Shown here: positions 31,345-36,444 of the stretch, piece by piece
How the letters are laid out: each line of letters starts with the position of its first letter
Numbering within the stretch: position 1 is the first letter of the stretch
Virus record (IMG/VR): IMGVR_UViG_647533160_000006
Span: 1-41,987 of that record
DNA length: 41,987 bases
From: a virus
Taxonomy: Duplodnaviria; Heunggongvirae; Uroviricota; Caudoviricetes
Strand: one strand, 5' to 3'
Position numbers and translations under genes: made by a program
Notes under the pieces: model-generated
What the model was told of the DNA's origin: nothing
Databases searched by the model: none
What the model saw: the letters and a program-made list of their open reading frames with translations, nothing else

Positions 31345-32061
31345 ATGGAAAATAAAAAATCACTGACGACAGAACAGCTCGAAGACGCTAAGCGGCTTAA
31401 GGCTTTGTATGAGTCAAAAAAGAAAGAATTGGGAATAACCCAATACTCAATCGCTGATGAACTGGGTATCACCCAAGGAGCGGTAGGGCATTATCTTAAT
31501 GGCAGAAACGCGCTAAACGTTGAGGTTGCATCTGGTTTTGCACGATTGTTGCAAGTCTCAATTGCTGATTTTAGCCAGTCAATTGCTGCCAAGGTTGCAG
31601 AACAGGCAGAAAGCCTTAAGAGCGATGCCAACGTAAGGTATGCAGGGGAATACAGAGCAGGAAAGAGGTATCCGGTGTTAAGCAGTATCCAGGCTGGCTC
31701 GTGGTGTGAAGCATGCGAACCATACACCATTAAAGACATAGATGTTTGGCTTGAGTCTGACGCGCATATTCAAGGTAATGCGTTTTGGCTTAAAGTGGAA
31801 GGTGATTCAATGACGGCACCGGTTGGGTTAAGCATTCCAGAGGGAACATTCGTTCTTTTCGATACCGGAAGGGAGGCGATCAACGGCAGCTTGGTCATAG
31901 CAAAACTTTCTGACTCTAACGAAGCAACATTCAAGAAGCTGATAATCGACGGAGGAAATAAATACCTCAAGGGACTTAACCCTGCATGGCCTCTCGTGCC
32001 AATCAATGGAAACTGCAAGATTATAGGCGTTGCAATTGAGACAAAACTAAGGCTGGTTTGA
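31345..32061 (+). CDS. cI: CI-like prophage repressor (HTH + LexA-type S24 peptidase domain)
   Basis: 238 aa; N-terminus LTTEQLEDAKRLKALYESKKKELGITQYSIADELG parallels lambda CI; C-terminal ...VEGDSMTAP...FKKLI... autocleavage-domain pattern. Confidence 0.85.
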   Translation: MENKKSLTTEQLEDAKRLKALYESKKKELGITQYSIADELGITQGAVGHYLNGRNALNVEVASGFARLLQVSIADFSQSIAAKVAEQAESLKSDANVRYAGEYRAGKRYPVLSSIQAGSWCEACEPYTIKDIDVWLESDAHIQGNAFWLKVEGDSMTAPVGLSIPEGTFVLFDTGREAINGSLVIAKLSDSNEATFKKLIIDGGNKYLKGLNPAWPLVPINGNCKIIGVAIETKLRLV

Positions 32062-32078
32062 TCACGCAAGGGGCGCTT

Positions 32079-32447
32079 ATGGTTGGAACCGCTATAGCAA
32101 GCTTTTTTGGGATGTTGGCAATCTCGACAATTTACGGCTTAGCGCATGCTTTTATTGCGAAATCTCTATCAGAAAAAATAAGCCAGGCTTGGGCGCATAG
32201 GTCAGCTCGTTTCATGATTCTGGTGATCATAGCAATACAAGGGATATCTGCATTTATCCTCTATGGATCAAGCTTATACCTATTGTATCAAGGCGCGACA
32301 TTTACGCCTTACACCAGTGATTACGGAACTCTATACGATGGTAGTGAAGACATCTCTATGGCTTGGATTGTCTTTGGTTTATCTATGGCCGTGTCTGTTG
32401 TAGCAGATATCATTAAGGTAATTCTCGTCTTAACCTTCGCTGACTAA
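32079..32447 (+). CDS. Small multi-TM membrane protein co-transcribed with cI (rex slot)
   Basis: ATG 6 nt after AAGGGG; ~122 aa with four hydrophobic segments; overlaps/abuts cI stop; no similarity to RexA/RexB that I can see. Confidence 0.6.
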   Translation: MVGTAIASFFGMLAISTIYGLAHAFIAKSLSEKISQAWAHRSARFMILVIIAIQGISAFILYGSSLYLLYQGATFTPYTSDYGTLYDGSEDISMAWIVFGLSMAVSVVADIIKVILVLTFAD

Positions 32448-32535
32448 CCTATAATCCCGGCAGCAATAGCTATCGGGATCCACTTCACATATCCCGCATA
32501 AAAAGCACTGAACAAGCAGACACCGAAAAAAATAA

Positions 32536-32621
32536 ATATCCTTTGTATTCATTTGCTTATCATTATTTCATCAAAAATAAATACCTTGGGTATTTACACA
32601 ATAAAATACCTACAGTATTCT
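32536..32621. promoter_or_regulatory. OL operator cluster with pL
   Basis: Same half-site family as OR: AATAT-N5-GTATT (32536-32550), AAATAC-N5-GTATTT (32579-32595), AATAC-N5-GTATT (32604-32620); candidate -35 TTTACA / -10 TATTCT. Confidence 0.65.
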
Positions 32622-32666
32622 TTAGCCATCAGCAGGACGCTGGTAGCCAAACGGAACATATTGGCA

Positions 32667-32708
32667 GGCTCTTTAACATTGATGGGATTGTCCCGCCGAA
32701 ATGCGGGA
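32667..32708 (+). promoter_or_regulatory. nutL (boxA + boxB)
   Basis: GGCTCTTTAACA (boxA) then TCCCGC-CGAAAT-GCGGGA (boxB); RNA sequence identical to the nutR boxB. Confidence 0.75.
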
Positions 32709-33019
32709 ACCAAAGAGTAGTTGGCTTTGGGGTGACGTGAAGTGCAGCTGCACGACGGCAACCGGAAGATAAGCACCCGGCGCGTCACCGCCAAAGTCAA
32801 TTCCATAGGCGAAATGCAGCCGCCAAACACAGCCAATGCTGCACATGCAACAGGAGGATTTATGTGAATGCATAACTTCAAAACCGAGGTTAATTAAATC
32901 TCTCGATCCGAGCATTGACCTATTAGGTGGCGAGATGCTCTTTCTGCCCCTCAGTTCGAGGGGCCAGAAACCACTTTGCAATCACTATCAATTCCAAAGT
33001 TGTTTCATCGGAGGTCAAC

Positions 33020-33325
33020 ATGACAGTAGTCATTACATATCTGGCTGACGATAACGCCAGAAATCGCCGCAGAGCACGCAGACAGGCTCAACGTGAACAG
33101 GCAATGCAAGAGCAGCTACTGGCGCGAAAAATTGCGCTAAAGCTCTCTGGTTGCGTCAGGGCAGATAAAGCAGCATCACTCGGAAGCCTTCGCTGCAAGA
33201 AGGTAGTAGAAGTCGAGCGTAAACAGAACCGTATTTACTACCGCAAGCCACGCAGTGAAATAGGTGTGACTTGTGTTGGTCGCCAGAAGCAACGCGGAAA
33301 ATCAATTCCAGCTTATTGCGATTGA
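33020..33325 (+). CDS. N: N-like antiterminator
   Basis: From ATG 5 nt after GGAGG; N-terminal Arg-rich motif DDNARNRRRARRQAQREQ; ~101 aa; the track ORF is extended upstream. Confidence 0.75.
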   Translation: MTVVITYLADDNARNRRRARRQAQREQAMQEQLLARKIALKLSGCVRADKAASLGSLRCKKVVEVERKQNRIYYRKPRSEIGVTCVGRQKQRGKSIPAYCD

Positions 33326-33333
33326 GGTGAGCC

Positions 33334-33498
33334 ATGCTCAAGAAAGTCAAACGCCGACTTTACAAAGAAGGTAGATATTCATGCCAGTTGCCAAAATGCG
33401 ACACAACAAAATGGAGTGTCGATGATTGGTGTAACTGGATAGATAGATACGGAACTTGGTGGGAACGTATTTATTTTCGCAGCAAACCACTTATTTGA
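33334..33498 (+). CDS. Small Cys/Trp-rich hypothetical protein (54 aa)
   Basis: GAGGTG RBS; MLKKVKRRLYKEGRYSCQLPKCDTTKWSVDDWCNWIDRYGTWWERIYFRSKPLI; below track length threshold. Confidence 0.45.
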   Translation: MLKKVKRRLYKEGRYSCQLPKCDTTKWSVDDWCNWIDRYGTWWERIYFRSKPLI

Positions 33499-33506
33499 GG
33501 TGATAT

Positions 33507-33593
33507 ATGGAAGAAGAATTTGAAGAGTTCGAAGAGCATCCGCAGGATGTGATGGAACAATACCAGGACTATCCGTATGACTACGACTATTGA
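33507..33593 (+). CDS. Acidic aromatic micro-protein (28 aa)
   Basis: GAGGTG RBS 5 nt before ATG; MEEEFEEFEEHPQDVMEQYQDYPYDYDY; stop overlaps the ral start; the RBS-start sequence is duplicated at 33828-33845. Confidence 0.35.
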   Translation: MEEEFEEFEEHPQDVMEQYQDYPYDYDY

Positions 33594-33777
33594 TAAAAAT
33601 CAATGGTGTGGACAATTCAAGCGATGCAATGGATGCAAGCTGCAATCGGAATGCATGGTTAAGCCTGAAGAAATGTTTCCTGTAATGGAAGATGGGAAAT
33701 ATGTCGATAAATGGGCAATACGAACGACGGCAATGATTGCCAGAGAACTTGGTAAACAGAATAACAAGGCTGCCTGA
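33577..33777 (+). CDS. ral: Restriction alleviation protein Ral
   Basis: 66-aa MTTTIDKNQWCGQFKRCNGCKLQSECMVKPEEMFPVMEDGKYVDKW... matches my recollection of lambda Ral. Confidence 0.7.
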   Translation: MTTTIDKNQWCGQFKRCNGCKLQSECMVKPEEMFPVMEDGKYVDKWAIRTTAMIARELGKQNNKAA

Positions 33778-33796
33778 TGGTGGCCTTTATTTTTTG
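33767..33796 (+). terminator. Intrinsic terminator after ral
   Basis: AAGGCTGCC-TGAT-GGTGGCCTT followed by TATTTTTTGG. Confidence 0.6.
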
Positions 33797-33836
33797 GCCG
33801 TAAATAATTTCATGCTTATTACAATCAAGGTGATAT

Positions 33837-34259
33837 ATGGAAGAACAAGCAAACAAGATTCTCGTAGAACTACTGCAAAAAGCCAGTAATGGAATAGACG
33901 CGGCTGTTTCATTTAGCCAGGCACAGATTCCTGATGTTGTTCATCAGTTGCTAATATGGAGTTTTGTCCATAGCGCACTTTTCCAAGTGGCTGGATTGTT
34001 GCTTTTAATTGCAGCAATTAAACTTCCTAGTTTTGCAAGAACGGCAAGAAATAATGGCGAGAGATGGACGTCTTTCGATGGACGTCCAAATGATGGACAT
34101 TTTATATCTTCGGTTTATTACGATATATGCACTGTATTTGTTCCTATATTTGGCTCAATTATGGGTGTTTTAATTATTGCCTTCAATTTCGAATGGTTGA
34201 AGATTTGGCTTGCACCTAAGTTATTCCTAATTGAATATGCGGCATCATTGGTTAAGTAA
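33837..34259 (+). CDS. Membrane protein, candidate superinfection-exclusion factor
   Basis: 140 aa with two strongly hydrophobic helices (ALFQVAGLLLLIAAIKL, VFVPIFGSIMGVLIIAF); flanked by terminators on both sides. Confidence 0.6.
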   Translation: MEEQANKILVELLQKASNGIDAAVSFSQAQIPDVVHQLLIWSFVHSALFQVAGLLLLIAAIKLPSFARTARNNGERWTSFDGRPNDGHFISSVYYDICTVFVPIFGSIMGVLIIAFNFEWLKIWLAPKLFLIEYAASLVK

Positions 34260-34263
34260 TTTC

Positions 34264-34289
34264 AGGCCGCATAGTCGGCCTTTATTTTT
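34264..34289 (+). terminator. Intrinsic terminator after the membrane protein gene
   Basis: AGGCCG-CATAGT-CGGCCT followed by TTATTTTTGG. Confidence 0.7.
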
Positions 34290-34311
34290 GGCATAAACAA
34301 CAGAGGATAAC

Positions 34312-34608
34312 ATGGAATTTAAAGGTACTGAAGGTAAGTGGGAAATAATGATGGATGGCGATGAGATTAAAATCATCCATGCAGACTCTCTTGAAAATGG
34401 CACAGGCTGGCGTTCGTACATTGCAATCTGTGAGGAAGTTCAATGCATTGAAGATGCCAATCTAATAGCGGCAGCGCCTGACCTTCTCGAAGCACTTCAG
34501 TTATTACTTAAGCAAACCAAAAATAGAACAACGACAACATATCCAGAATGGTATGGAGCTGTTAATAAAGGTCTCGCAGCAATAAGAAAAGCTCTTGGGG
34601 ATAAGTAA
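34312..34608 (+). CDS. Hypothetical early protein (98 aa)
   Basis: ORF with GAGGA RBS; family not recognised. Confidence 0.5.
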   Translation: MEFKGTEGKWEIMMDGDEIKIIHADSLENGTGWRSYIAICEEVQCIEDANLIAAAPDLLEALQLLLKQTKNRTTTTYPEWYGAVNKGLAAIRKALGDK

Positions 34609-34796
34609 TGAAAGTAAAAATAACCGCTTCTAATACCAGTTTTGTTAGTGTTGGTGATATTACAGAAGTAATAACAAACCATGATGGAACACAAGTTATG
34701 TGGTCTGCTTTCTGTAAAAGATATGAGCGAGTTAGTTGGTGTGAAAACGTATGGGGCGTCGAATACGAAGAGTTACCTGAAATGCATGACGAATAA
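34608..34796 (+). CDS. Hypothetical early protein (62 aa)
   Basis: ATG overlapping upstream stop (TAATGA); family not recognised. Confidence 0.45.
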   Translation: MKVKITASNTSFVSVGDITEVITNHDGTQVMWSAFCKRYERVSWCENVWGVEYEELPEMHDE

Positions 34797-34891
34797 GCAC
34801 TGTGTATTCATTCCAACGAGTGAATACACGGAGCAATGTCGCTCGTAACTAAACAGGAGCCGACTTGTTCTGATTATTGGAAATCTTCTTT

Positions 34892-34917
34892 GCCCTCCAG
34901 TGTGAGGGCCTTTTTAT
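34892..34917 (+). terminator. Intrinsic terminator upstream of cIII
   Basis: GCCCTC-CAGTGT-GAGGGC followed by CTTTTTATAT; preceded by a 9-bp-stem hairpin at 34802-34829. Confidence 0.65.
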
Positions 34918-34981
34918 ATGCATACCAATAACGCTTCACTCGAGGCGTTTTCGTTATGCAATCAAACAGAAGGAGCATCCT

Positions 34982-35152
34982 ATGCAACAGTTCGCTATTG
35001 CAGGGGCGGCATCGGTTCGCCCTTTCAACCCGATTTTATCGGTACAGCATTCACGAAAAAATATTTTAACCGGAGCAGACTTTAAACAACCAAGAATGAA
35101 AAGCTTGCTCGAAAAGCTTTGGGATATTTTGAAACAACAAGGCCGTCCATGA
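34982..35152 (+). CDS. cIII: CIII-like FtsH inhibitor
   Basis: 56 aa from ATG after AAGGAG: MQQFAIAGAASVRP...MKSLLEKLWDILKQQGRP parallels lambda CIII; the track ORF is extended upstream. Confidence 0.7.
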   Translation: MQQFAIAGAASVRPFNPILSVQHSRKNILTGADFKQPRMKSLLEKLWDILKQQGRP

Positions 35153-35233
35153 GTTTTACAGATAACTGGTCAGACGAAGAATTCATTCGTCAGATGAACA
35201 AAATGCTCAATCAGCACAAAGAACAGGAGAAAG

Positions 35234-35545
35234 ATGATGATTCTGACTCTGAATGATAAGCGTGAAATATCGCAAATAATCGCAAGTTTTACTGATGAAG
35301 ATTACGAGCGAATCAACAGTGAAGTTGATCGCCTCTGCAAACGTTGCGACCCAATAAGCGAAATGCTTCGCTCATATAAACCAGATGAACACACTAAAGA
35401 CGCTATCGACTGGCTGGAAGATGATGACTGTAACTATCAGGAAAAATCCGCTGAATGGTTCTGGGATGCAATAACCGAAAGAGTTAAGGCTGAATATGCC
35501 TTCGCAATATTCAAACGCAGACACATTTATGGAGAAGCAGCATGA
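35234..35545 (+). CDS. Hypothetical early protein (103 aa)
   Basis: ORF after AGGAGA; directly upstream of and overlapping recT; a 35-aa ORF (35149-35256) coupled to the cIII stop overlaps its start. Confidence 0.5.
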   Translation: MMILTLNDKREISQIIASFTDEDYERINSEVDRLCKRCDPISEMLRSYKPDEHTKDAIDWLEDDDCNYQEKSAEWFWDAITERVKAEYAFAIFKRRHIYGEAA

Positions 35546-36444
35546 GCAATATCGTTGAATTCGTTAAACAGCAGGAGCAGTTATTCTGCGGAGCATTGAC
35601 TGAACAGACGGTGACATGGGCTAAGGAAAGCCAGTTTGCAATTCAGTATTTCCAGAAAAACGATTACCTGGCTAAAACAGCACTGGCAAACCCAACCAGC
35701 GCACAGAACGCCATCATCAATGTTGCGGCGATCGGCATCACCTTAAACCCGGCCAGCAAACTTGCTTATCTAGTTCCGCGCGACGGCATGGTTTGCCTTG
35801 ATATCAGCTATATGGGATTACTTCACCTTGCGCAATCGACAGGTTCAATTAAGTGGGGGCAATGCAAACTGGTGTACTCAAACGACACCTATGAATCAAA
35901 TGGCCTTGATTCAGCACCAACCCACAAATACAACGCATTTGGTGAGCGAGGCTCTATTGTTGGAGGTTATTGCACGGTTAAAACAGCAGATGGTGACTAC
36001 CTGACTGAAGAAATGAGTCTGGCGGAAATTAAAGCTGTGGAAGCAACGAGCAAGGCAAAGAATGGACCGTGGAAAACATTCTGGGAAGAGATGGCGCGTA
36101 AAACAATAGTTAAACGCGCCAGCAAATACTGGCCTAAAGCCCAGCGACTGGATAATGCCATTCACCTGCTTAACGAAGATGAAGGTATGCATCAGGAACC
36201 AGTTATGCCGCACAAATCAGAGGAAGATATCCGCGAAGATGAACGGAAACGCCAGCAGGAAATTATGGAAAAAGCACAACTTCTTTGTGATGAAATGGCT
36301 CAGGCAGAAAACATGGATGATTTGAAGCGATATTTTGCAGAAGCATATCGCCTGACATCTGGAATGAAATTACAGCAGAACGTACAAGCCATTTACATAG
36401 AATGCAAAGCGAAACTGGAGGTTGCCAGTGAGCAAACTGTATGA
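35542..36444 (+). CDS. recT: RecT-family single-strand annealing recombinase
   Basis: 300 aa with conserved-looking blocks ...NVAAIGITLNPASKLAYLVPRDG... and ...GPWKTFWEEMARKTIVKRASKYWP. Confidence 0.75.
   Translation: MSNIVEFVKQQEQLFCGALTEQTVTWAKESQFAIQYFQKNDYLAKTALANPTSAQNAIINVAAIGITLNPASKLAYLVPRDGMVCLDISYMGLLHLAQSTGSIKWGQCKLVYSNDTYESNGLDSAPTHKYNAFGERGSIVGGYCTVKTADGDYLTEEMSLAEIKAVEATSKAKNGPWKTFWEEMARKTIVKRASKYWPKAQRLDNAIHLLNEDEGMHQEPVMPHKSEEDIREDERKRQQEIMEKAQLLCDEMAQAENMDDLKRYFAEAYRLTSGMKLQQNVQAIYIECKAKLEVASEQTV

What the first reader, a model, noticed from the sequence alone, without database searches (positions are those of the whole stretch)
33334..34300. Moron-like cluster downstream of N: Cys/Trp-rich 54-aa protein, 28-aa acidic peptide, Ral, and a terminator-flanked membrane protein
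Between N and cIII there is a 54-aa Cys/Trp-rich ORF, a 28-aa strongly acidic aromatic peptide (MEEEFEEFEEHPQDVMEQYQDYPYDYDY) overlapping the ral start, Ral itself, and a 140-aa two-TM protein bracketed by intrinsic terminators. The 18-nt RBS-start block AGGTGATATATGGAAGAA occurs twice (33498-33515 and 33828-33845), suggesting cassette shuffling. Ral is anti-restriction, so its neighbours are plausible anti-defence (acidic DNA-mimic-like peptide) or exclusion factors.
Basis: partly seen in the sequence, partly recalled or inferred. Interest (0 to 1): 0.6.

Follow-up and report, generated by a model that had tools for sequence, protein, structure and literature searches.

The report
Swappable early-gene cassettes beside phage Ral
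This is an ordinary accessory stretch of a lambda/P22-like phage's early-left operon, built from known small genes that are swapped as cassettes at short shared end sequences; its one interesting part is that lambda's ignored 28-residue acidic "orf28" looks like a real, independently conserved micro-protein gene.

Summary
Almost all of it is already catalogued:
- The 28-aa peptide is lambda orf28 (lambdap47), identical in amino acids.
- The 54-aa ORF is a DUF5484 / T4 55.4 / Sf6 gp36 homologue. A 19-bp deletion has given it a C-terminal extension.
- Ral is canonical.
- The 140-aa protein is the Sf6 gp34 family (phrog_3054). It is not SieB and not P22 gp17.

The 18-nt repeat is real. There is also a second repeat, GGCCTTTATTTTT, at both terminators. 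Together they bound two cassettes: orf28+ral+T1 and tm140+T2. Related phages carry one cassette, the other, or both, joined exactly at these blocks. That supports the "cassette shuffling" idea.

"Moron" is only partly supported. The segment has terminators and low GC, but no promoter was found, and in many relatives tm140 follows N directly.

New here: orf28 is under purifying selection (pN/pS about 0.1-0.3). It co-diverges with Ral. It also occurs without ral, including overlapping the stop of a Lar-family gene in one clade. Function remains untested for orf28, DUF5484 and tm140.

The parts
33020..33325 (+). Antiterminator N (101 aa from the ATG at 33020). Its stop TGA lies inside the SD of the next gene.
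   Evidence: phrog_271 E=2e-34; weak Pfam N_peptide match; 89-94% identical to N of related loci.
33334..33498 (+). 54-aa basic Cys/Trp-rich protein of the DUF5484 / T4 55.4 / Sf6 gp36 family, with a C-terminal extension.
   Evidence: PF17583 46.5 bits against a cut-off of 27; phrog_1871 E=1.7e-22. A 19-bp deletion relative to Sf6 removes the gp36 stop codon, so the ORF reads on to the TGA inside the orf28 SD. tblastn matches in 916 phage records, most of them at under 60% identity in T4-like phages including the T4 55.4 ORF.
33498..33515 (+). Copy 1 of junction block D1 (SD AGGTGA, spacer TAT, then ATGGAAGAA): start of cassette A.
   Evidence: Exact repeat with 0 expected by chance. It is preceded by at least five different left flanks in relatives.
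33507..33593 (+). orf28, a 28-aa acidic/aromatic micro-protein gene identical in amino acids to lambda orf28 (lambdap47). It overlaps the ral start by 17 nt.
   Evidence: phrog_16060 E=7e-19. Annotated in lambda J02459 at 34271-34357. Intact in all 83 ral-containing loci examined plus the window. Diverged variants keep the reading frame through in-frame indels. pN/pS 0.1-0.3.
33577..33777 (+). ral, the restriction-alleviation protein (66 aa, 4 Cys).
   Evidence: PF11058 162.5 bits over the full length. 100% identical to lambda Ral.
33766..33796 (+). Terminator T1 (9-bp stem, T-run), overlapping the ral stop. It contains D2 copy 1 (33782-33794).
   Evidence: -13.9 kcal/mol. Conserved after ral in lambda and CUS-3. 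D2 repeat.
33828..33845 (+). Copy 2 of junction block D1: start of cassette B.
   Evidence: In relatives this block is joined directly to the 3' end of N, of the DUF5484 gene, or of the lambda-type sieB-side flank.
33837..34259 (+). tm140, a 140-aa two-TM protein of the Sf6 gp34 / CUS-3 0047 family. The N-terminal ~45 aa and C-terminal ~22 aa are highly conserved; the TM hairpin and loop between them are hypervariable.
   Evidence: phrog_3054 E=2e-52. 99% identical to Sf6 gp34. Family alignment. Hydropathy. AF2 gives an all-helical model with pLDDT 73.
34264..34291 (+). Terminator T2, which travels with tm140. It contains D2 copy 2 (34277-34289).
   Evidence: Present after tm140 in nearly all related loci. 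The most distant homologues carry a different terminator in the same position.
34312..34796 (+). Two further accessory ORFs: p98 (34312-34608, phrog_1273) and p62 (34608-34796, phrog_10407). They are inserted after the ...CAACAGA junction that follows T2.
34892..34949 (+). Tandem tL2-like terminators upstream of cIII.
   Evidence: Fold z = -6.3. Sf6 annotates the homologous site as tL2A.
34982..35152 (+). cIII-like FtsH inhibitor; marks the end of the variable segment.
   Evidence: phrog_550 E=1e-22.

Best explanation
The region is the N-proximal accessory segment of the early-left (pL) operon of a P22-like/lambdoid temperate phage. It consists of small gene cassettes stacked head to tail:
- a T4 55.4-like DUF5484 gene;
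- cassette A = orf28 + ral + terminator T1;
- cassette B = Sf6 gp34-like membrane protein + terminator T2;
- then p98 and p62, tL2-like terminators and cIII.

Three consecutive cassettes start with the same ribosome-binding arrangement (AGGTGA, 3 nt, ATG). The upstream gene's TGA stop sits inside the SD for the DUF5484 gene and orf28, but not for tm140.

Cassettes A and B share an identical 18-nt 5' end and an identical 13-nt 3' end, which is the terminator arm plus T-run. Recombination at these short identities adds, removes or swaps cassettes, so relatives carry A only, B only, or A+B.

Inferred expression: transcription from pL, read through T1, T2 and tL2 once N has modified RNA polymerase. 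These are early lytic genes, not prophage-expressed morons.

orf28 is a genuine, translated acidic micro-protein gene. In this window its translation probably also feeds ribosomes to the overlapping ral start.

Shown here: the anatomy, the family memberships, the junction swapping and the purifying selection on orf28. Inferred: the recombination mechanism, pL/N dependence, translation, and all biochemical functions except Ral's published one.
For: Family assignments.

Near-identical arrangement in Sf6 and CUS-3, annotated as N, (gp36), ral, gp34. Lambda has orf28-ral followed by the same terminator but no tm140.

Repeats: D1 and D2 are exact.

Junction swapping:
- Identical left flanks, for example ...AAATGAAATTAGGCAGCAAACCACTTATTTG or ...CCGCAATCCACTATTTA, are followed by D1+orf28 in some loci and by D1+tm140 in others.
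- The spacing from the end of N to the start codon is 18 nt in both cases.
- Of 76 informative tm140-anchored loci, 28 are ral->tm140, 18 are N->tm140 and 30 have something else upstream.
- Of 78 informative ral-anchored loci, 37 have ea10 next, 7 tm140, 6 p98 and 28 something else.
- T2 travels with tm140.
- L085 equals the window minus the DUF5484 gene and cassette A.

The AGGTGA-N(2-5)-ATG motif occurs only 6 times on the + strand of the window, and 3 of those are the consecutive starts at 33325, 33498 and 33828.

No promoter-like site lies upstream of tm140.

orf28:
- intact in all 83 ral-containing loci examined plus the window, and in diverged forms of 23-30 aa with in-frame indels;
- synonymous sites saturated while pN is 0.10-0.21. 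This includes the two cases found independently of the peptide pattern: Kluyvera L190 (pN/pS 0.19) and BTP1 L167 (0.15);
- occurs without ral in L334, L335, L345 and the Lar clade.
Against: - No expression data were available. The lambda ribosome-profiling paper is not in the held library.
- The promoter scan is a simple consensus test. A weak promoter candidate (TTGGCC, 17 nt, TATTAC) lies upstream of tm140, seen by direct reading of the sequence, so prophage expression cannot be excluded.
- The low GC of the whole segment and the terminator on each side of tm140 do fit a moron-like origin.
- Most diverged orf28 variants were found with a DNA pattern that required part of the peptide. This biases pN/pS downward for those variants.
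- The shared 5' block could partly reflect selection for an efficient SD and MEE start rather than only recombination.
Confidence: 0.75

Rival explanations
1. One reading: a moron-like anti-defence/exclusion island. tm140 would be a prophage-expressed exclusion protein (SieB-like in role). The small ORFs would be anti-defence factors acting alongside Ral.
For: - Terminators on both sides of tm140.
- Segment GC of 0.365-0.425 against 0.47 for the window.
- tm140 is absent from lambda at this exact point, so it behaves as an insertion.
- Ral is a bona fide type I anti-restriction gene.
- The hypervariable TM/loop region between conserved ends of tm140 is the pattern expected of a protein in an arms race.
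Against: - No promoter-like site upstream of tm140.
- In many relatives tm140 abuts N with a shared stop/SD junction, so it is expressed from pL.
- Homologues exist in virulent N4-like, phi92-like and Vibrio phages.
- No similarity to SieB or P22 gp17.
- No PADLOC, Pfam or NCBIfam hit.
Confidence: 0.2
2. orf28 works in the same pathway as the restriction-alleviation proteins. In this reading it is a small acidic partner or regulator. It would bind a basic, nucleic-acid-binding surface of either the Zn-finger proteins Ral/Lar themselves or the HsdM/HsdS core of type IA restriction enzymes. It would be co-translated with them through overlapping reading frames.
For: - orf28 precedes and overlaps ral in every enterobacterial lambdoid ral locus examined, and it co-diverges with Ral down to roughly half-identical Ral proteins (by eye, not computed).
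- In nine related uncultured-phage contigs there is no ral. There the peptide gene overlaps the stop codon of a Lar-family gene (PF14354, 31.6 bits against a cut-off of 28.6).
- Net charge is -12 with 7 aromatic residues.
- Ral is reported to act through the HsdM N-terminal domain, but no detailed mechanism for Ral was found in the held literature (PMC12707154).
Against: - Ral expressed alone gives the counter-defence phenotype in a published screen (PMC12373910).
- The Ral of siphovirus E2010 (64% identical) has no orf28 upstream.
- orf28 also occurs with neither ral nor lar nearby (L334, L335, L345).
- Distant Lar homologues (29-39% identity) have no acidic micro-ORF, so the Lar link is a single evolutionary event.
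- Anti-restriction genes and orf28 may both simply be selected for the earliest-expressed, N-proximal position.
Confidence: 0.25
3. orf28 is only a leader or coupling ORF. Its translation opens the mRNA and delivers ribosomes to the ral start, and the peptide itself has no function.
For: - 17-nt overlap with ral.
- The predicted fold pairs the orf28 start region with the ral start region (z = -2.7).
- Ral's own SD (AGGA) lies inside orf28 codons 20-21, by direct reading of the sequence.
Against: - The peptide sequence is conserved while synonymous sites are saturated.
- The ORF persists without ral downstream, and next to internally deleted ral alleles.
- The common CCT allele of Pro23 breaks the predicted pairing.
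Confidence: 0.12
4. The 18-nt repeat is convergence on an efficient SD + ATG + GAA-GAA start, not a recombination joint.
For: - The block is entirely SD, spacer and the first three codons.
- Distant tm140 homologues also begin with M-E/N/D-E.
- The DUF5484 gene uses the same SD with a different spacer.
Against: - Identity extends through the non-constrained spacer TAT.
- Identical upstream flanks are joined to either gene exactly at the block.
- A second exact repeat bounds the 3' ends of the same two units.
- More distant tm140 genes use a different SD, AGAGGGTAAGGCG.
Confidence: 0.08

Closest known systems
Shigella phage Sf6 genes 37-34 (N, gp36, ral, gp34) and the CUS-3 N-ral-ECRS218_0047 region
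   Same: Same gene order and about 96% DNA identity over the shared parts. gp34 is 99% identical to tm140, and gp36 is the DUF5484 homologue. Terminators and 'boundary sequences' are annotated nearby.
   Different: - In the window a 19-bp deletion extends the DUF5484 ORF from 45 to 54 aa.
- Sf6 and CUS-3 do not annotate orf28 although it is present.
- Downstream of gp34 they carry different genes: Sf6 has gp33 (969 nt) and CUS-3 has two other ORFs, where the window has p98 and p62.
Phage lambda orf28-ral (lambdap47, lambdap46) in the pL operon
   Same: orf28 and Ral are 100% identical in amino acids. The 17-nt overlap, the D1 block in front of orf28 and the terminator over the ral stop are all the same.
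   Different: Lambda has the sieB region, not DUF5484, between N and orf28. After the ral terminator it goes straight into the tL2/ea10 region with no tm140 cassette.
Boundary sequences / module linkers of lambdoid phage mosaicism (the Botstein modular theory and the 'bsq' boundary-sequence features in Casjens-group phage annotations; attribution from my own knowledge, with the bsq features seen)
   Same: Short conserved sequences at gene boundaries where otherwise unrelated modules are joined in different combinations.
   Different: Here both ends of two adjacent units carry the same pair of short repeats within one genome (SD/start block and terminator arm). The unit behaves like a stackable cassette. 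Whether recombination is Red/RecT-mediated at 13-18 nt identities was not tested.
Morons (a promoter-gene-terminator unit inserted between conserved phage genes; Juhala et al. 2000, from my own knowledge)
   Same: tm140 is an insertion relative to lambda, has lower GC and carries its own intrinsic terminator.
   Different: No recognisable own promoter. It is often fused to the N stop/SD junction and is also found in virulent phages.
Small or acidic anti-restriction proteins (Ocr, ArdA DNA mimics; T4 Stp peptide) (from my own knowledge; Ocr and ArdA are named as type I inhibitors in PMC12373910)
   Same: orf28 is extremely acidic, is encoded in an early operon and sits next to type I anti-restriction genes.
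   Different: At 28 aa it cannot form the folded dimeric B-DNA mimic of Ocr or ArdA. It has no sequence similarity to any catalogued anti-defence family. No activity is known.

Membership tests
Ral (Pfam PF11058) | Full-length match to the family profile above the curated cut-off | tested here: met
   162.5 bits against a cut-off of 25, residues 1-66 of 66. 100% identical to lambda Ral.
Ral (Pfam PF11058) | Alleviates type IA restriction and enhances modification | not testable with these tools
   Known for lambda Ral (PMC12707154; PMC10695390). Inferred here from sequence identity.
Lambda orf28 family (phrog_16060) | Full-length profile match, and a position upstream of and overlapping ral | tested here: met
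   E=7e-19, residues 1-28 of 28. Peptide identical to the lambda J02459 CDS at 34271-34357. 17-nt overlap with ral.
Lambda orf28 family (phrog_16060) | Translated into a peptide | not testable with these tools
   Indirect evidence only: an SD plus ATG, pN/pS of 0.1-0.3, in-frame indels, and persistence without ral.
DUF5484 (PF17583) / T4 55.4 / Sf6 gp36 | Profile match above the gathering score | tested here: met
   46.5 bits against 27, residues 5-42. phrog_1871 E=1.7e-22. tblastn match to the T4 55.4 ORF. The C-terminal 9-11 residues lie outside the family and arose by a 19-bp deletion.
Sf6 gp34 family (phrog_3054) | Full-length profile match; conserved N- and C-terminal segments flanking a TM hairpin | tested here: met
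   E=2.3e-52, residues 1-140. 99% identical to Sf6 gp34. Alignment of 31 members.
SieB superinfection exclusion protein | Sequence similarity to P22/lambda SieB | tested here: not met
   BLASTP against P22 SieB gives E=28. There is no Pfam match to a SieB family, only a weak sub-threshold DUF1031 match.
SieB superinfection exclusion protein | Location between N and ral with its own promoter; on the opposite strand in the P22 annotation | tested here: not met
   tm140 lies downstream of ral on the pL strand. P22 sieB lies between gene 24 and ral on the other strand, with the promoter PsieB.
Moron | Own promoter upstream | tested here: inconclusive
   No site in the consensus scan. By eye there is only a weak TTGGCC-17-TATTAC candidate. 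In relatives the gene abuts N.
Moron | Intrinsic terminator downstream, and an insertion between genes that are adjacent in relatives | tested here: met
   T2 travels with the gene. Lambda joins the ral terminator directly to the sequence that follows T2 in most loci. GC is 0.381 against 0.47 for the window.
Moron | Expressed from the repressed prophage | not testable with these tools
   No transcript data.
DNA-mimic anti-restriction proteins (Ocr/ArdA type) | Folded protein displaying a B-DNA-like array of carboxylates and binding the type I enzyme | not testable with these tools
   Only the acidic composition is met (12 of 28 residues). At 28 aa it is far shorter than known mimics. No homology. 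The tools cannot model complexes.
Lambdoid module boundary / linker sequence | The same short sequence joins different neighbouring modules in different genomes | tested here: met
   D1 has at least 5 left flanks and at least 3 right-hand genes: orf28, tm140 and a third gene starting MEF in L135. D2 and the ...CAACAGA junction have at least 4 right-hand continuations.

The most novel reading that the evidence does not exclude
Lambda's never-studied orf28 may define a family of 23-30-residue acidic/aromatic micro-proteins, with the consensus core EHPxD(D/V)MxxYQDYP(Y/F)(D/E)(Y/F)D(Y/F). In this reading they are free-standing early effectors of lambdoid phages, functionally tied to type I restriction alleviation. 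They are co-translated with Ral through an upstream overlap, or, in one clade, with a Lar-family protein through a downstream overlap. They would modulate these Zn-finger proteins or their HsdM/HsdS target by binding a basic surface.
Probability: 0.22. Interest if true: 0.65.

Novelty: new member of a known kind. Interest (0 to 1): 0.33.

Why it matters
As a genome feature this is routine. It is another combination of catalogued accessory genes in the most mosaic part of lambdoid genomes. Parts of it occur in 1490 of 5426 complete E. coli genomes.

Two points have some value.

First, it is an unusually clean example of cassettes bounded by the same short 5' (SD/start) and 3' (terminator) sequences. 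Natural A-only, B-only and A+B variants exist. That makes the old 'module linker' idea of phage mosaicism directly testable by crosses.

Second, orf28 has sat in the lambda annotation for decades, is skipped by PGAP, and has no functional literature in the library searched. Here it shows the signatures of a real micro-protein gene, with a possible link to two unrelated restriction-alleviation families. Testing it is cheap, and it could bear on how Ral works, for which no detailed mechanism was found in the held literature.

Tried and rejected
- SieB and P22 gp17 identity for tm140: rejected (BLASTP E=28 and E=34).
- Known defence or anti-defence families: no PADLOC or NCBIfam hits for any ORF.
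- Structure route for tm140: the AF2 model is only moderately confident (pLDDT 73). Foldseek against the PDB gave nothing below E=2, so no inference was drawn.
- RNA element instead of a peptide: no Rfam match at E<=0.1 in 32300-35600. The predicted orf28-start/ral-start pairing is weak (z = -2.7) and is broken by a common allele.
tblastn found nothing, presumably because the low-complexity filter masked the query. Degenerate DNA patterns were used instead.
- Species-wide genome scan for diverged Ral: most of the 24 hits are lambda DNA (Ral 100% identical, mostly on short or low-coverage contigs) in assemblies of unrelated bacteria, so contamination. Only Kluyvera was informative.
- Extending the Lar-peptide link: Lar homologues at 29-39% identity have no acidic micro-ORF. 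The Lar+peptide DNA has no match in GenBank phages.
- Translation evidence from the lambda ribosome-profiling paper: not held in the library. Other lambda papers do not mention orf28.
- The Silas-lab accessory-gene screen supplements do not contain these sequences.
Full report
**1. What is there**

The window carries the immunity and early-left region of a P22-like/lambdoid phage on the + strand. The order is a cI-type repressor, a small membrane protein, N, the finding, then cIII, kil and a RecT-like recombinase. Megablast places it closest to CUS-3, Sf6, N7 and HK140, at about 96% identity in patches. No record covers 80% or more of 32900-35000, which is typical mosaicism.

All the stated ORFs exist at the stated coordinates. 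The 18-nt block AGGTGATATATGGAAGAA is exact at 33498 and 33828, with 0 matches expected by chance. Terminator-like hairpins with T-runs lie at 33766-33787 and 34264-34281.

**2. Identity of the ORFs**

- Ral is canonical: PF11058, 162 bits, 100% identical to lambda Ral.
- The 28-aa peptide is identical to lambda orf28. That CDS is in the J02459 annotation at 34271-34357, is called lambdap47 in RefSeq, and is non-essential by CRISPRi.
- The 54-aa ORF passes Pfam's threshold for DUF5484 and matches phrog_1871. It is the homologue of Sf6 gp36 and of T4 55.4. tblastn finds it in 916 phage records, mostly T4-like phages. Its extra length comes from a 19-bp deletion that removes the gp36 stop codon. 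The frame then runs on to the TGA embedded in the orf28 Shine-Dalgarno sequence.
- The 140-aa protein is Sf6 gp34 / CUS-3 0047 (phrog_3054; 99% identical to gp34).
  - It has no Pfam, NCBIfam or PADLOC match.
  - It is unrelated to P22 SieB or gp17.
  - All of the listed database relatives that carry a name are called hypothetical; 480 relatives were found in total.
  - Homologues at 25-40% identity occur in virulent N4-like, phi92-like and Vibrio phages.
  - The family alignment shows an almost invariant N-terminal ~45 residues and C-terminal ~22 residues. Between them is a hypervariable two-TM hairpin and loop.
  - AF2 gives a helical model of moderate confidence, with no significant fold matches.

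**3. The repeat and the cassette structure**

The repeat finder shows a second exact repeat, GGCCTTTATTTTT, at 33782 and 34277. It is the 3' arm plus T-run of both terminators. The region is therefore two tandem units with the same ends:
- A = D1-orf28-ral-T1(D2)
- B = D1-tm140-T2(D2)

Comparative data show that these ends are used as joints.
- I fetched 80 IMG/VR loci through Ral. orf28 is always present, but it is preceded by at least five unrelated left flanks that converge about 25 nt before D1.
- I fetched 80 loci through tm140. The same left flanks are joined through D1 directly to tm140. The distance from the end of N to the start codon is the same 18 nt as for orf28.
- Counts: among tm140 loci, 28 are ral->tm140, 18 are N->tm140 and 30 have something else upstream. 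Among ral loci, 37 are ral->ea10, 7 ral->tm140, 6 ral->p98 and 28 other.
- T2 accompanies tm140 in almost all loci. It is followed by the junction ...CAACAGA and then at least four alternative continuations. One of these is the sequence that in lambda follows the ral terminator directly.
- L085 is effectively the window minus the DUF5484 gene and cassette A. Phage HF4s shows the same N->tm140 joint in a cultured phage.
- Three consecutive genes in the window use AGGTGA-N3-ATG. That motif (with a 2-5 nt spacer) occurs only six times on this strand of the window.

It is the known phenomenon of lambdoid boundary sequences; 'bsq' features are annotated in Sf6 and CUS-3. That recombination at 13-18 nt identities is the mechanism remains an inference.

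**4. Moron or operon gene?**

- For a moron-like origin: tm140 is an insertion relative to lambda, carries its own terminator, and the segment has low GC (0.365-0.425 against 0.47).
- Against: no promoter-like site lies between T1 and tm140. The scan found 6 sites in 3.2 kb against 7.7 expected, and none of them is there. In many relatives the gene shares a stop/SD junction with N. Homologues occur in virulent phages.
- The most economical reading is an early gene read from pL after N antitermination. T1, T2 and the strong tandem tL2-like terminators (z = -6.3) would then be N-suppressible stops, as in lambda.
- Expression itself was not testable.

**5. orf28**

This is the part with some novelty.
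- Within close relatives the common polymorphisms are synonymous: Pro11 CCG/CCT/CCC, Pro23 CCG/CCT, Tyr22, Gln18 and Asp21. Amino-acid changes are rare singletons.
- P22 keeps the peptide 100% identical although its Ral is only 73-74% identical. BTP1 has four changes in the peptide, two of them acid-for-acid (E9D, D21E). A Kluyvera prophage found through Ral alone has a 23-aa version, VEDEFDEHPDDDMSRYQDYPYDH, still overlapping ral.
- Degenerate DNA patterns recovered further variants, for example MEDEIEEFDEHPQDDMSQYQDYPYEYDY, MNMEEDIEEFDEHPDDDMRQYQDYPYEYDY and MEEDEFEEHPDDDMRKYQDYPYDF. These are paired with correspondingly diverged Ral proteins.
- Across these, synonymous sites are saturated while pN is 0.10-0.21 (pN/pS 0.1-0.3). 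The pattern search biases this figure, but the two cases found independently of the pattern give 0.15 and 0.19.
- The ORF also occurs without ral. It stands alone in L334, L335 and L345.
- In nine closely related uncultured-phage contigs it starts 14 nt before the stop of a Lar-family gene (PF14354 above threshold), in the same N-proximal position.
- Several loci keep orf28 next to a ral allele with an internal deletion of about 100 bp.

Together this argues that orf28 is a self-standing micro-protein gene and not only a ral leader.

A functional link to restriction alleviation is attractive, because two unrelated alleviation families are both translationally overlapped with it. The link is weak, for these reasons:
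- The Lar association is one clade; distant Lar genes lack the peptide.
- One diverged Ral lacks it.
- Ral alone is active in a published accessory-gene screen (PMC12373910).
- Early-expression pressure could place all of these genes next to N independently.

A 2025 review attributes Ral's effect to the HsdM N-terminal domain and does not mention orf28 (PMC12707154). I found no paper on orf28 function.

**6. Comparison and verdict**

The segment is a new combination of known gene families in a known kind of mosaic region.
- It is essentially the Sf6/CUS-3 arrangement, with a variant DUF5484 tail and a different continuation after tm140.
- Parts of it occur in 1490 of 5426 complete E. coli genomes. 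An arrangement covering 80% or more of 33326-34300 occurs in 56.
- PGAP annotates N, Ral and the 140-aa protein but not orf28; the genome examined carries no DUF5484 gene.

Interest is modest. It rests on the clean cassette anatomy and on orf28 as a cheap, testable micro-protein candidate.

Noticed in passing
L169-L189 (genome-contig hits): Most Ral hits in the one-genome-per-species collection encode Ral 100% identical to lambda's, mostly on short or low-coverage contigs. They sit in assemblies of unrelated bacteria such as Nocardioides, Paenibacillus, Bradyrhizobium, Shewanella and Pseudomonas. This is almost certainly lambda control-DNA contamination of public assemblies.
   Followed up: no
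window 32058-32447 (+): A 129-aa multi-TM protein (phrog_6534, E=4e-79) starts at the stop codon of the cI-type repressor. That is the position held by rexA/rexB in lambda, so it is a candidate prophage-expressed exclusion gene. It has no Pfam or PADLOC match.
   Followed up: partly
L121, L123, L125, L127, L130, L132, L152, L155, L192, L202, L250, L302: A recurrent ral allele has an internal deletion of about 100 bp, so the reading frame ends as MTTTIDKNQWCGQYERRQ. orf28 upstream is still intact, and the allele usually sits next to the 149-aa tm140 variant.
   Followed up: partly
window 33837-34259 and alignment A1: The tm140 family has near-invariant N- and C-terminal segments. The two TM helices and the loop between them are hypervariable in sequence and length, so total protein length ranges from 120 to 161 aa. 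It is unclear whether this reflects diversifying selection or simply relaxed constraint on a membrane anchor.
   Followed up: partly
window 34312-34608 (p98); L313, L317, L345: p98 (phrog_1273) shares a motif, FKGTxGxW...AAAP(E/D)LLEAL, with ORFs that follow the Lar+peptide pair or a lone orf28 in distant lambdoid contigs. It appears to be another widely shuffled cassette of unknown function.
   Followed up: no
window 33334-33593: A strongly basic small protein (DUF5484: 13 K/R against 6 D/E) is encoded immediately upstream of the extremely acidic orf28 (0 K/R, 12 D/E). The two do not co-occur consistently in relatives, so this is probably coincidence.
   Followed up: partly
window 33504-33511 and 33571-33580: The predicted mRNA fold pairs the orf28 start (AUAUGG) with the ral start (CCGUAU), z = -2.7. 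The pairing is perfect in P22 but broken by the common CCT allele.
   Followed up: partly
window 34885-34960: Two tandem hairpin terminators lie just upstream of cIII, with a very strong predicted fold (z = -6.3). They are homologous to the site annotated tL2A in Sf6. No Rfam family matched anywhere in 32300-35600, including the lambda cIII thermosensor.
   Followed up: partly
L135 about 2188-2500: A third gene, starting with the codons for M-E-F (ATGGAATTTCA), uses the same GAGGTGAGATATGGAA junction in place of orf28-ral. It lies between the 54-aa DUF5484 variant and tm140.
   Followed up: no
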